DNA of 64,000 bases, taken from NCBI RefSeq assembly GCF_002854065.1, contig NZ_CP024147.1, one strand, 5' to 3'. Below are positions 12,701 to 15,700 of this stretch, piece by piece. This stretch comes from Escherichia coli (lineage in GTDB: Bacteria > Pseudomonadota > Gammaproteobacteria > Enterobacterales > Enterobacteriaceae). The position numbers are program-made. Position 1 is the first letter of the stretch, and every line of letters starts with the position of its first letter.

Positions 12701-15700
12701 AGCGCAGACGCGTCACGTTCAGTCCCAGCGAACGGGCTTCGTCGTCGGAAAGCGTGAGTAAATTCATGCGCCAGCGGAGAAAAAACAGGGGCAAGGAGCC
12801 TATGAGAATGATCGGTGCAGCATAGCAGAGATCGCGTAAGGTCACGGTGGACAGTCCCCCCAGCAACCAGAAGGTAATTGACGGTAACTGGGTGTAAGGA
12901 TCGGCCAGCGTTTTAATTAGTGATATCCCCGCTCCGCACAACGTTCCTAACGCAATGCCTACCAGCACCAGGATTAAGATCGGATCGTGGCGGGTCACCC
13001 GACGCGTAATCAACCAGACGCCCGCGACCACCATCAGCCCGCCGCAAAATGCGTACAGCTGGATGTAAACAATGGATAATCCCCACAGAATTGCCGTGCA
13101 GGCACCAAGTCCGGCACCAGCGGAGACGCCTAAAATATCCGGTGAAACTAAGGGATTACGCAACATTCCCTGATAGGTGGTTCCGGCTCCTGCCAGCGCC
13201 GCGCCCAGTAACAGCGCAGCAAGAATACGCGGCACGCGGATTTGCCAGAAGACAATTTGTTCCTGCACAGGAACATTTTCTTGACGAAGAATTAGCGCCA
13301 GCAGTTGCTGCATATCGAGATTATAAGCCCCACTTACGGCGGCAAAAGTGATACTGATAGCTGCCAGCAGCAAAATACATCCGTTTACGATTCTCATTAG
13401 CTCGCCACCAATTTTTGATAGTCGGCGTCACTGAGTGAACAATGCCAGAACAGTTGGGCGTAATGCTGCATGTCACTTTTAAACTGGCGATTGATGGCGG
13501 GATCCAGCCAGGCGTGAAGTCTGCGTAATCCCAGAAGACGGTTGATTCCCGGTGGGGCATCCAGCCAGCCAAAGGGCAAGCCACTTAAAAATAAGATGCG
13601 TTGTTCCGCAACGGCTTTCACGCCATGCCAGAGAGGATCACGACGAATAAAATCTGCAGTAACGGCCTCCTGAACCAGAATAATATCCGGCTGCCAGCGC
13701 AGGAGATTTTCCATGGAAACCTGTGTCAGGCCGTGGCGATCGGCTATTTGCGCGACGTTGTGCAAACCTAATAATTCCGCCGCCTCGGTATGCAACGAAC
13801 CCTTTAAGCCCGTTTCCAGCCCTCGAGGACCGCGCGCAGCATAAAAGCGGAGGTTAGCGGCGGGTGAGGCGGCGAATGCCTGAGCTTCACCAACGAAGCG
13901 GCTGGCGAGATTGGCTTGTTCTGCGGCGCGATGCTCTTCGCCTAACGTTTTGCCAAGCGTTGTTAACTGTTCTGCTGATTGCGCCAGTTTCCCGTTAAGC
14001 AATAACCAGGGTATTTGTGTCTGTTCGCTAACCTGCCGTGCCTGGGAGATCCAGGTTTCATCCGTATTGCCGCAATCAACGACCAAATCGGGATGTAACG
14101 CCATAAGCCCTTCCAGCGAGAGTGTGCTGGCGCGCCCGGCGAGTCGTCCCAGCCTGGGTAACTGGCGAATGTGCTCTGGCAATGGAATTAATGCCTGACG
14201 GGCAAAATCAAAAGAGGAAAAACCGACCATTTTTTCTGGCGCGACAGCCAGCAATAGCAAATCGGCGGGCGCACCTGCGCTGACGATGCGTGTAATGTTT
14301 TGGGCTTCGGGAAGCGTCAGTGAGGCCCAGAATTTGACTGATTGTGCAAAAGAAGGCAGATGATGCAGGAACAACGTCGACGCAAGAATCTGTGTAAACC
14401 TCCGTCTGGTTAGTGACATAAGTTATATCCTGATAATTAAAACCGCTATATATTTACATATATATCGAAAAAAATCATGTTTGATGTCAAAATTTGTCTA
14501 AAGAGACAGAATGATTTGCTTGTTGCTTAAATAACACTTTGTTCCACAAGAAAATTGTCAGGGAGAATGGCGGAGTGGCGAAAAATATAAATAGAGGTGT
14601 AATGATTAACAAATTGATAAAATAAAATTAAAATCTTCTCTGATAAAAGAAAATAAAGGCATAGACCGTAGAATGGGGGGCATTTCGTGGCGAAAAAAGA
14701 GCAATGCCAATTTTATGCACATAATGGCATTGCTCGATATACAGCCTCGATATACAGCAAAGTTAAGGCGTAGGTTCCGCCTCTTTTTGTTTTACCGGCT
14801 GTGTTGTTGATTCACTGAGTGGACGCGTCGCCGGAACATTGTCACACGGTTGCTCTTTCGGGCAGATCAAATCCAGCATTTTCAGCGTCACGCCGTTGGT
14901 CCAGCCAAAGCCATCCTGTAATGGATATTCGCCACCGCCGCCCCCCGTTCCGGTGGTGCTGACATCATATTTTTCCACCAGCTTTTTCTCCCGGTCATAG
15001 GTGTGCTGAACATTGGTCAGGAATTGCCAGCTAATGTCCATCGCCACCTCTTTTTGCCCGTAGTTTTGTAATCCTTCTGTCGCGACCCACTGCAACGGTG
15101 CCCAGCCATTTGGCGCATCCCATTGTTGCCCACTTTTCACCGACGTGGTGTTCAGGCCGCCTGGTTGCAGCAGATGAGTTTTCGTCGCCGTCGCCATTTT
15201 GTTGGCGCGATCTTTCGCTGCCGCATTGACGTATAGCGGGAACAGGGCGGCAGCGGTTAACTGATTGCGCACTTTATGACTTTTCAGGTCGTAATCGGCA
15301 TACCAGCCTTGTTGATCGTTCCACAGGTATTTTTCGATCCCTTTTTGACGGGCATTTGCCAGCGTTTCGTACTGGTTTGCCATCGCGTTATCTCCGGCAG
15401 CCTTGCTGGCGCGGGCGAGGATTTTTTCCATTTTAAACATCAGGCTGTTCAGATCGACCGGTACGATGCTGGTGGTGCGTATGGTATTTAACTGCTGCGG
15501 ATTGTCCATCCAGCGCGAGCTGAAATCCCAGCCAGACGCAGCGGCAGAGCGCAGGTCGCGGTAAATTTCAGTGGCAGGTCGATTCGGATTGCTTTTGGCG
15601 GTGGCAATATCTTCCACCCATGACTCTGGTCGTGGCGTATCACGATCGTCCCAGTAGCGGTTGAGAAGGGTACCATCCTGAAGTTTTACAACGCGTTTTT

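What the first reader, a model, noticed from the sequence alone, without database searches (positions are those of the whole stretch)
14440..14495. ModE-type operator over the predicted promoter of the TonB/ABC operon
26-48 bp upstream of the binding-protein start codon the plus strand reads CGC-TATATA-TTTACA-TATATA-TCG (14444-14467), an almost perfect dyad matching the ModE consensus as I recall it (CGnTATATA-N6-TATATAnCG; TATAT-N7-TATAT). A canonical -35 TTGACA lies at 14490-14485 on the coding strand, so the dyad would cover the -10/+1 region, the usual repressor position seen at modA. Together with the ModD-like gene in the operon this predicts repression by molybdate-bound ModE, implying a TonB-dependent molybdenum or tungsten scavenging route.
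Basis: partly seen in the sequence, partly recalled or inferred. Interest (0 to 1): 0.8.

Follow-up and report, generated by a model that had tools for sequence, protein, structure and literature searches.

The report
Molybdate-repressor operator on E. coli "iron" transporter operon
A perfect binding site for the molybdate-sensing repressor ModE sits on the promoter of an accessory E. coli outer-membrane-receptor/ABC-transporter operon that has always been called an iron-uptake system, so the operon is most likely switched on by molybdenum starvation rather than iron starvation.

Summary
CGCTATATA-TTTACA-TATATATCG lies at 14444-14467, 25-48 nt upstream of the binding-protein ATG. It matches the ModE consensus with 0 mismatches.

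- **Score:** a matrix built only from the K-12 modA, moaA, dmsA and napF sites gives 27 bits. The training sites score 26-31 and the next best site in the 64-kb window scores 10.5.
- **Conservation:** the box keeps its position in about 45 orthologous or homologous loci, from Escherichia to Shewanella, Providencia, Pasteurellaceae and Wohlfahrtiimonas. The flanks, the spacer and the two "n" positions drift. In 684 kb of fetched DNA, every hit of at least 15 bits belongs to this operon.
- **Molybdenum context:** some relatives carry a second box before the receptor gene, a modE gene inside the operon, or a Mop gene beside it.
- **Alternatives excluded:** there is no Fur box and no riboswitch.
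- **Closest known system:** the permease is nearest to Haemophilus MolB, whose operon carries similar boxes and is repressed 10-fold by molybdate.

The cluster is the "prrA-modD-yc73-fepC"/OI-55 island, found in 39% of complete E. coli genomes. ModE binding and the transported substrate remain untested.

The parts
14444..14467 (.). ModE-type operator: dyad CG-n-TATATA-N6-TATATA-n-CG. On the operon strand it reads CGATATATATGTAAATATATAGCG.
   Evidence: 0 mismatches; 27.4 bits with a matrix from K-12 sites; conserved in about 45 loci
14477..14490 (-). TTGACATCAAACAT. I read it as a candidate FNR-type site (TTGAT-N4-ATCAA, 3 mismatches) centred about 41 nt upstream of the predicted start.
   Evidence: TTGAY and CA are invariant at a fixed 23-nt distance from the box in 17 enteric loci, with 1-3 mismatches to the FNR consensus. 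Inference only.
14450..14458 (-). TGTAAATAT: candidate extended -10 (TG-n-AAATAT) lying inside the dyad spacer and right half-site. The predicted transcription start is near 14443-14441.
   Evidence: the spacer TGTAAA is conserved in enterics although ModE sites do not need a fixed spacer. TG-n-nAnnAT is kept where the spacer differs. Not mapped experimentally.
14428..14431 (-). Shine-Dalgarno AGGA, 8 nt before the ATG
   Evidence: conserved cAGGA in the enteric orthologues
13397..14419 (-). Periplasmic binding protein (Peripla_BP_2, class III) with a twin-arginine signal MSLTRRRF. It is 26% identical to Haemophilus MolA.
12417..13397 (-). FecCD/BtuC-type (type II) ABC permease. Its best solved relative is HI1471 MolB.
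   Evidence: E 9e-65; 40% identity
11662..12420 (-). ABC ATPase (the 'fepC' of the literature), 36% identical to MolC
10840..11652 (-). Class I SAM-dependent methyltransferase ('yc73'), present in every homologous operon with a downstream part that could be read
9989..10843 (-). ModD (quinolinate-phosphoribosyltransferase-like protein of unknown function), 47% identical to Haemophilus ModD
7993..9963 (-). TonB-dependent outer-membrane receptor ('prrA')
   Evidence: No solved relative at E<=1e-10.
14700..14745 (-). Probable treA terminator: an 11-bp GC-rich hairpin followed by TTTTTT. It separates treA from the operon promoter.
   Evidence: Read. The tool's scan missed it because the loop is 15 nt. 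Inference.
8017..14761 (.). Accessory island (OI-55 / S-loop 83) absent from K-12, where ycgY lies instead
   Evidence: PMC1890555

Best explanation
The dyad at 14444-14467 is an operator for the molybdate-sensing regulator ModE. It controls a six-gene accessory operon: Tat-exported binding protein, MolB-like permease, ATPase, SAM methyltransferase, ModD and a TonB-dependent receptor.

When the cell has enough molybdate (or tungstate), the ModE-molybdate dimer binds the two TATATA half-sites. These half-sites overlap the core promoter, most likely an extended -10 inside the dyad. ModE therefore blocks RNA polymerase, as it does at modA. When molybdenum is scarce, ModE leaves and the operon is expressed.

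Expression probably also needs anaerobiosis, through an FNR-like site centred about 41 nt upstream of the predicted start.

The operon is therefore a molybdenum- or tungsten-starvation uptake system related to the Haemophilus MolBC-A importer, with an outer-membrane TonB-dependent step. It is not a Fur-controlled iron system.

Shown here: the sequence match, its statistics, its conservation and the gene context. Inferred: ModE binding, repression, the FNR input and the substrate.
For: 1. Sequence match. The site has 0 mismatches to CGNTATATA-N6-TATATANCG, the consensus printed in PMC545781. It is closer to that consensus than the four K-12 sites: modA 2, moaA 1, dmsA 1 and napF 2 mismatches.

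2. Matrix score. A K-12-only matrix gives 27.4 bits. Training sites score 26.3-30.6, leave-one-out scores are 15.9-26.4, the next site in the window scores 10.5, and the maximum in 2000 AT-rich random sequences was 19.9.

3. Conservation. The box lies 42-58 nt before the binding-protein start in Escherichia, Citrobacter, Yokenella, Serratia, Klebsiella, Raoultella, Enterobacter, Pluralibacter and Shewanella. It is also present in Providencia, Lonepinella (both within that range), Wohlfahrtiimonas and a metagenomic relative (75-76 nt in these two) at 40-46% protein identity. The surrounding intergenic DNA is unalignable. A logo of 33 distinct boxes has low information exactly at the consensus 'n' positions and the spacer.

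4. Specificity. In 684 kb of fetched DNA all 46 hits of at least 15 bits belong to this operon. They lie before the binding-protein gene or in the region just ahead of or at the start of the receptor gene, plus one directly after the receptor gene in Wohlfahrtiimonas. None lies in the flanks.

5. Independent links to molybdenum:
- ModD is encoded in the operon.
- A full-length modE replaces ModD in L050, and a Mop gene precedes the binding-protein gene in L052.
- The permease's best solved relative is MolB of the Haemophilus molybdate/tungstate importer.

6. Geometry. Only 24 nt, including the Shine-Dalgarno sequence, lie between the box and the ATG. A promoter cannot fit downstream of the box, so any bound protein must repress. 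modA has the same layout, with its box 20-43 nt before the ATG.

7. Experimental precedent. The Haemophilus-type mol locus carries ModE-like boxes 31-54 nt before molA and 35-58 nt before the first gene. In H. influenzae Rd, molybdate represses molB 10-fold through an 'unknown factor' (PMC4031551).

8. The regulator is available: modE is found in 5391 of 5426 complete E. coli genomes.

9. Alternatives fail. There is no Fur box in any orthologue and no riboswitch.
Against: - There are no binding or expression data for this operon in any strain.
- The transcription start is not mapped, so the exact overlap with the -10 is a prediction.
- The FNR-like site in E. coli has 3 of 10 mismatches, which alone is near chance level.
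- The experimental status of the four K-12 training sites rests on my knowledge of the literature. I located them in K-12 DNA by consensus, which makes the matrix partly circular with that consensus.
- The binding protein is only 26% identical to MolA over part of its length, so the substrate may not be free molybdate.
- The window does not contain modE, so its presence in this particular genome is inferred from the species.
- High-GC relatives (L052, L053) have no E. coli-type box.
Confidence: 0.8

Rival explanations
1. ModE does bind, but it is a minor or conditional input. The operon would be controlled mainly by another signal, such as oxygen through FNR or an unidentified substrate-specific signal. 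It would serve something other than molybdenum acquisition, for example uptake of another metal complex whose use depends on molybdoenzymes.
For: A conserved FNR-like TTGAY-N6-CA lies 23 nt from the box. The binding protein is far from MolA (26%). An invariant methyltransferase with no role in known molybdate uptake is present. MolA binds molybdate only weakly according to PMC3928620 and PMC4031551.
Against: The box is the best-conserved element of the promoter and the only one kept in Shewanella, Providencia, Pasteurellaceae and Wohlfahrtiimonas. Receptor genes with their own promoter region have their own box. A modE or Mop gene is embedded in some relatives.
Confidence: 0.1
2. The dyad is the operator of a different regulator that happens to recognise a TATATA-N6-TATATA palindrome, not ModE.
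For: No binding data exist. AT-rich palindromes are bound by many proteins.
Against: No regulator gene is present in the six-gene island. The information profile of 33 boxes reproduces the ModE consensus, including the flanking CG and the uninformative third position. A matrix made only from K-12 ModE sites finds these sites and nothing else in 684 kb. The one regulator found inside a homologous operon is ModE itself.
Confidence: 0.06
3. The dyad is a chance AT-rich palindrome or merely part of the -10/UP region of the promoter, and has no regulator.
For: The intergenic region is 68% A+T. TATAT-rich sequence resembles -10 elements.
Against: 2000 random sequences of the same composition never reached 20 bits, against 27.4 observed. 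The G/C flanks are conserved across orders while neighbouring bases drift. The RNA hairpin is insignificant, at -5.9 kcal/mol with z = -0.32.
Confidence: 0.03

Closest known systems
E. coli modA operator (ModE-molybdate repression of modABC)
   Same: Same dyad family: the modA site is CGTTATATTGTCGCCTACATAACG. It has nearly the same distance to the start codon (20-43 nt against 25-48 nt here) and sits in front of the binding-protein gene of an ABC importer.
   Different: The site here is a perfect consensus (0 against 2 mismatches). It controls a type II (BtuCD-like) importer with a TonB-dependent receptor, not the type I ModABC. It lies on an accessory island absent from K-12. It has not been tested experimentally.
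Haemophilus influenzae MolBC-A / modD cluster (HI1469-HI1475), the 'secondary' molybdate/tungstate importer
   Same: Homologous ModD (47%), permease (40%; best PDB hit 2NQ2), ATPase (36%) and a class III binding protein. ModE-like boxes lie at the same distance before molA. The operon is repressed 10-fold by molybdate (PMC4031551).
   Different: No TonB-dependent receptor or methyltransferase was called among the genes read in the Haemophilus-type locus, which ends just downstream of molC. That locus is joined instead to a ModA-like type I system. The binding proteins are only 26% identical. The Haemophilus boxes are weaker (about 17 bits).
TonB-dependent receptor plus type II ABC importer systems (BtuB-BtuCDF, FhuA-FhuBCD, heme HmuR-HmuTUV)
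   Same: Same two-membrane architecture and the same protein families. The binding protein has a twin-arginine signal.
   Different: Those systems are controlled by a riboswitch or by Fur. Here there is no Fur box and no riboswitch, and a ModE box is present instead. The substrate is unknown.
ModE-activated promoters (moaA, dmsA, napF)
   Same: Same recognition sequence. They are co-regulated with FNR, as proposed here.
   Different: In the one case checked, dmsA, the box lies about 90 nt downstream of the FNR site, in a different arrangement from this locus. From my own knowledge (not checked here), ModE stimulates these promoters from sites outside the core promoter. Here the site is 24 nt from the ATG, which only allows repression.

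Membership tests
ModE operator (ModE box) | Inverted repeat matching CGnTATATA-N6-TATATAnCG | tested here: met
   0 mismatches. 27.4 bits with a matrix from K-12 sites, within the range of the training sites. The consensus is quoted in PMC545781.
ModE operator (ModE box) | Conservation of the site in orthologous promoters while neighbouring DNA diverges | tested here: met
   about 45 loci from several gammaproteobacterial orders. The 'n' positions and the spacer vary.
ModE operator (ModE box) | A modE gene in the same organism | tested here: met
   modE is found in 5391 of 5426 complete E. coli genomes. The window itself does not include the modE locus.
ModE operator (ModE box) | Position relative to the promoter that allows regulation | tested here: inconclusive
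   The box ends 24 nt before the ATG, so it must overlap or follow the core promoter. The start site is not mapped. The tool found no canonical -35/-10 pair here.
ModE operator (ModE box) | Binding by ModE-molybdate, and molybdate/ModE-dependent expression | not testable with these tools
   The only evidence is the precedent in Haemophilus: molB is repressed 10-fold by molybdate and similar boxes are present.
Mol-type (MolBC-A) molybdate/tungstate type II ABC importer | MolB-like permease and MolC-like ATPase | tested here: met
   The best PDB hit of the permease is HI1471 (E 9e-65, ahead of FhuB, HmuU and BtuC). Identities are 40% and 36%.
Mol-type (MolBC-A) molybdate/tungstate type II ABC importer | MolA-like binding protein that binds molybdate or tungstate | tested here: inconclusive
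   Only 26% identity over 232 residues. The nearest solved relative is the uncharacterised 4pag. Ligand binding cannot be tested here.
Mol-type (MolBC-A) molybdate/tungstate type II ABC importer | Linked modD gene | tested here: met
   TIGR01334 at 504 bits. 47% identical to the Haemophilus ModD. ModD is absent from the Shewanella and some other orthologous operons.
Fur-regulated iron/siderophore uptake system (the current annotation) | Fur box in the promoter region | tested here: not met
   The best match has 6-10 of 19 mismatches in E. coli and 17 orthologues, the same as shuffled sequence.
Fur-regulated iron/siderophore uptake system (the current annotation) | TonB-dependent receptor plus FecCD-type ABC importer | tested here: met
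   These families are generic and not specific for iron.
Class II FNR-dependent promoter | TTGAT-N4-ATCAA centred near -41.5 | tested here: inconclusive
   3 mismatches in E. coli and 1-3 in 17 enteric orthologues at a fixed distance. The centre falls at -40.5 to -42.5 only if the predicted extended -10 is used. No start-site data exist.

The most novel reading that the evidence does not exclude
This operon is a TonB-dependent, two-membrane uptake route for molybdenum or tungsten, induced by molybdenum starvation (and probably anaerobiosis). It is carried by about 40% of E. coli, including EHEC O157 and ExPEC lineages. Its substrate may be a complexed form of the metal rather than free molybdate. 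Three features point that way: a BtuCD-type importer, a binding protein far from MolA, and an invariant cytoplasmic SAM methyltransferase. The system has been misfiled for 25 years as a putative iron-uptake virulence cluster.
Probability: 0.4. Interest if true: 0.8.

Novelty: new member of a known kind. Interest (0 to 1): 0.62.

Why it matters
Molybdoenzyme-dependent anaerobic respiration is central to how Enterobacteriaceae grow in the gut. How these bacteria obtain molybdenum when it is scarce is known only for ModABC.

The cluster studied here is prrA-modD-yc73-fepC, also called OI-55 or ECs1693-1699. It is used as a marker of pathogenic lineages and is still described as "possibly mediating iron uptake" (PMC1890555 in 2007, PMC12928451 in 2026).

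The prediction of ModE control, without any Fur box, re-assigns the cluster to molybdenum or tungsten homeostasis. It names the regulator for the "unknown factor" that represses the Haemophilus mol operon. It also gives a directly testable candidate for a TonB-dependent molybdenum uptake step. The experiments needed are simple: a reporter fusion, a gel shift and metal uptake measurements.

Tried and rejected
- **Fur regulation (the annotation's implication).** No Fur box is present in E. coli or in 17 orthologues; matches are at shuffle level.
- **Riboswitch (Moco or cobalamin) in the leader.** Rfam found nothing at E<=1 except noise.
- **RNA or DNA hairpin function of the palindrome.** The fold is -5.9 kcal/mol with z = -0.32. 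The 'n' positions do not covary.
With 16-19 nt spacers the -10 would be CGATAT, GATATA or ATATAT, none with the needed A at position 2 and T at position 6. The promoter scan did not call it.
- **A remnant of the box in K-12.** None exists; the island is replaced by ycgY. This explains why K-12 ModE studies could not have seen the site.
- **Other ModE-like sites in the window.** None scores above 10.5 bits. The 3-mismatch pattern hit at 59357 is not meaningful.
- **Literature.** No held paper links prrA/ECs1693-1699/Z1961-1966 to ModE or molybdenum. Studholme & Pau 2003, Tirado-Lee 2011 and Anderson 2000 were not available. RegPrecise could not be consulted, so an earlier database prediction cannot be excluded.
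- **Solved relatives of the receptor.** None at E<=1e-10.
- **Not attempted.** I did not predict the binding-protein structure, because the tools would not show the ligand pocket.
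Full report
**What is in the sequence.** The window is E. coli chromosome: ldcA, emtA, ycgR, ymgE, then an island, then treA and the dha genes. On the minus strand the island encodes six genes:
- a periplasmic binding protein (14419-13397);
- a FecCD/BtuC-type permease (13397-12417);
- an ABC ATPase (12420-11662);
- a class I SAM methyltransferase (11652-10840);
- ModD (10843-9989; TIGR01334, 504 bits);
- a TonB-dependent receptor (9963-7993).

The plus strand at 14444-14467 reads CGCTATATATTTACATATATATCG, which lies 25-48 nt upstream of the binding-protein ATG. 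TTGACA is at 14490-14485 on the coding strand.

**Is it more than chance?**
- The pattern CGNTATATA-N6-TATATANCG with up to three mismatches gives two sites in 64 kb against 0.10 expected. Only this one is perfect.
- The consensus is the one printed for E. coli ModE in PMC545781.
- I located the ModE sites of the four classical K-12 promoters in K-12 DNA: modA CGTTATATTGTCGCCTACATAACG, moaA CGCTATATACATGATTACATAGCG, dmsA CGATGTATACAAGCCTATATAGCG and napF GGTTATAAATATATTTATATAGCG. That these four are experimentally defined ModE targets is my own knowledge. The titles of the relevant papers appear in the reference lists seen.
- A symmetrised matrix from these four sites gives the window site 27.4 bits. 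The training sites score 26.3-30.6 and their leave-one-out scores are 15.9-26.4.
- The next best position in the window scores 10.5 bits. Random sequences with the composition of this AT-rich intergenic region reach a mean maximum of 2.1 (sd 3.6) and never exceed 19.9 in 2000 trials.

**Conservation.**
- A scan of one genome per species with an alignment of binding-protein homologues returned 35 loci.
- In nearly all of them the best match to the consensus has 0-2 mismatches and lies 43-58 nt before the binding-protein start. The loci come from Escherichia, Citrobacter, Yokenella, Serratia, Klebsiella, Raoultella, Enterobacter, Pluralibacter and Shewanella. The Shewanella proteins are only about 50% identical.
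- The rest of the intergenic DNA cannot be aligned between genera. In Shewanella the six-base spacer differs while the half-sites are kept.
- More distant homologues (40-46% identity), reached through a profile-free search of cluster representatives, also have the box. These are Providencia, a Shewanella marina-like contig, Lonepinella (Pasteurellaceae), Wohlfahrtiimonas and a metagenomic contig. Two high-GC relatives (34-40% identity) lack it.
- Several of these, plus Shewanella fodinae and Serratia sp. H1w, have a second box close to the start of the receptor gene (39-60 nt upstream of it where the gene start is clear).
- Scanning all 684 kb of fetched DNA with the K-12 matrix gave 46 hits of at least 15 bits. 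Every one lies before the binding-protein gene, close to the start of the receptor gene or, once, directly after it. None lies in the flanking genes.
- A logo of the 33 distinct boxes is CG-n-TATATA-n6-TATATA-n-CG. Information drops to 0.2-0.9 bits exactly at the consensus 'n' positions and in the spacer.
- This is the signature of a protein-binding dyad under selection, not of recent shared ancestry.

**Independent links to molybdenum.**
- The operon order is conserved: binding protein, permease, ATPase, methyltransferase, (ModD), receptor. ModD is missing in Shewanella, Erwinia phyllosphaerae and one Klebsiella, yet the box stays.
- In the metagenomic locus L050 the place of ModD is taken by a full-length ModE (NF007957, E 3e-53; ModE repressor domain plus two Mop domains). 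In L052 a 68-residue Mop protein is encoded directly upstream of the binding protein.
- The permease's best solved relative is HI1471, the MolB subunit of the Haemophilus influenzae molybdate/tungstate importer (E 9e-65). It ranks ahead of FhuB, HmuU and BtuC.
- Against a Haemophilus-type mol locus (L055; MolB 98% identical to the 2NQ2 chain) the identities are ModD 47%, MolB 40%, MolC 36% and MolA 26%.
- L055 carries its two best matrix hits (17.2 and 16.7 bits; next best 8.4) 35-58 nt before its first gene and 31-54 nt before molA. A second Pasteurellaceae locus has a 23.5-bit box 23-46 nt before its molA-like gene.
- In H. influenzae Rd, adding molybdate repressed molB 10-fold and modB 7-fold. 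The authors attributed this to "an unknown factor" (PMC4031551).
- A homologous operon with the same kind of box in the same place is therefore known experimentally to be repressed by molybdate.

**How it most likely works.**
- Only 24 nt separate the box from the ATG: GTTTTAATTATCAGGATATAACTT, which includes the AGGA Shine-Dalgarno sequence. A promoter cannot lie downstream of the box. The box must overlap the core promoter or sit in the short leader, and either position gives repression, not activation.
- The layout copies modA, whose operator lies 20-43 nt before its ATG.
- The regulator is available: modE is in 5391 of 5426 complete E. coli genomes.
With the TTGACA as -35, the -10 at 16-19 nt would be TCGATA, CGATAT, GATATA or ATATAT. 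The scanning tool called no promoter there.
- In 17 enteric loci the conserved features upstream of the box are TTGAY and, 11 nt later, an invariant CA, at a fixed 23 nt from the box. That is TTGAT-N4-nnCAA, with 1-3 mismatches to the FNR consensus TTGAT-N4-ATCAA. It is nearly the sequence of the dmsA FNR site TTGATACCGAACAA seen in K-12.
- The dyad spacer, which ModE does not constrain in the K-12 sites, is conserved in enterics as TGTAAA. Where it differs it still reads TG-n-nAnnAT. This fits an extended -10 (TGTAAATAT, 14458-14450) with a start near 14443-14441. That start puts the FNR-like site at about -41, the class II position.
- I rate this anaerobic-activation layer at about 0.5. The E. 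coli site alone has 3 mismatches and is not significant.
- A probable treA terminator (hairpin 14745-14709 followed by T6) separates the operon from treA.

**What it is not.**
- No Fur box is present in E. coli or 17 orthologues; matches are at shuffle level.
- There is no Rfam match in the leader.
- The palindrome's RNA hairpin is weak and no better than shuffles.
- The island carries no regulator gene.

**What is known about the cluster.**
[quoted passage not shown] It was "proposed to be involved in iron uptake" in 2007 and "possibly mediating iron uptake" in 2026.
- The island is present in 2139 of 5426 complete E. coli genomes and the promoter region in 2144.
- A common second allele has the box CGCTATATGTGTAAGTATATAGCG, with one mismatch.
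- K-12 lacks both island and box, so K-12 ModE regulon studies could not detect it.
- No paper in the searchable library links the cluster to ModE or molybdenum. I could not read Studholme & Pau 2003 or consult RegPrecise, so an earlier in-silico listing cannot be ruled out.

**Verdict.**
- The site is a new, very strong member of the ModE operator family. Confidence that ModE binds and represses is about 0.8.
- The wider consequence is well supported by context but untested: a widespread "iron" cluster would actually be a molybdenum- or tungsten-starvation, TonB-dependent uptake system related to MolBC-A.
- The divergent binding protein, the BtuCD-type importer and the invariant methyltransferase leave open that the substrate is a complexed form of the metal.

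Noticed in passing
window 14477-14490 and 14450-14458 (minus strand): A conserved TTGAY-N6-CA (FNR-like, 1-3 mismatches) lies 23 nt upstream of the box in 17 enteric loci. A conserved TG-n-nAnnAT lies inside the dyad. Together they suggest a class II FNR promoter with an extended -10, which would mean anaerobic induction on top of molybdate repression.
   Followed up: partly
window 14419-14340 (N-terminus of the binding protein): The binding protein starts MSLTRRRFTQILAS..., a twin-arginine (Tat) signal that is conserved in the orthologue alignment. A Tat-substrate study in ExPEC PCN033, a strain that carries this locus, lists a 'modD' mutant among its constructs. That mutant may in fact be this gene.
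   Followed up: partly
L046 11579, L048 10633, L050 11519, L030 11740, L028 9061: In relatives with a gap before the receptor gene, a second ModE box (17-29 bits) lies 39-60 nt upstream of the TonB-dependent receptor gene where its start is clear. In L050 the box lies about 35 nt inside the called start of that gene. In E. coli the gap is only about 25 nt and there is no second box.
   Followed up: partly
L050 10622-11437; L052 784-990: A full-length modE gene sits inside a homologous operon in place of modD. In another relative a 68-residue Mop (molbindin) gene lies directly upstream of the binding-protein gene.
   Followed up: yes
L055 3879-3902 and 6905-6928; L056 6922-6945: ModE-like boxes precede the Haemophilus-type modA-like/modD/molABC cluster and a second Pasteurellaceae molA-like gene. 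They offer an identity for the 'unknown factor' behind the molybdate repression of molB reported in PMC4031551.
   Followed up: partly
L049 12806-12829: In Wohlfahrtiimonas a 22.8-bit ModE-like box lies just after the receptor gene and about 240 nt upstream of a flavin-monooxygenase-like gene (FMO / lysine-ornithine oxygenase-type hits). This could be a further regulon member.
   Followed up: no
window 10840-11652 and all homologous operons: A class I SAM methyltransferase is present in every homologous operon with a readable downstream part, including those without ModD and, in L053, without a receptor. Its role in a transport operon is unexplained.
   Followed up: no
window 8017-14761; L041 (Sakai); L045; L020, L035, L036: The island shows signs of decay and disruption. 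IS629 lies next to it with a ycgR pseudogene in O157 Sakai. IS1 is inserted about 60 nt upstream of the box in strain MSB1_4I. The binding-protein or permease genes are truncated or fragmented in Citrobacter braakii ATCC 51113 (box missing), C. koseri NCTC10786 and Pluralibacter gergoviae (box still perfect).
   Followed up: no
window 14527-14727 (minus strand): The Sakai annotation places a 66-residue hypothetical ORF (ECs_5716) between treA and the operon. It overlaps the probable treA terminator hairpin (14709-14745) and is probably not a gene.
   Followed up: no
window 11662-12558: The mechanical ORF list gives the ATPase a 298-residue GTG-started frame that overlaps the permease gene by about 140 nt. 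RefSeq and the homologues use the 252-residue start at 12420.
   Followed up: partly
L021/L022 (Affinibrenneria salicis): The locus was returned twice, from two different ranges of one scaffold (148827-165849 reversed and 909280-926302). Its box lies 276 nt, not about 50 nt, upstream of the tblastn start of the binding protein. This could be a longer leader, an extra upstream gene or a misplaced start.
   Followed up: no
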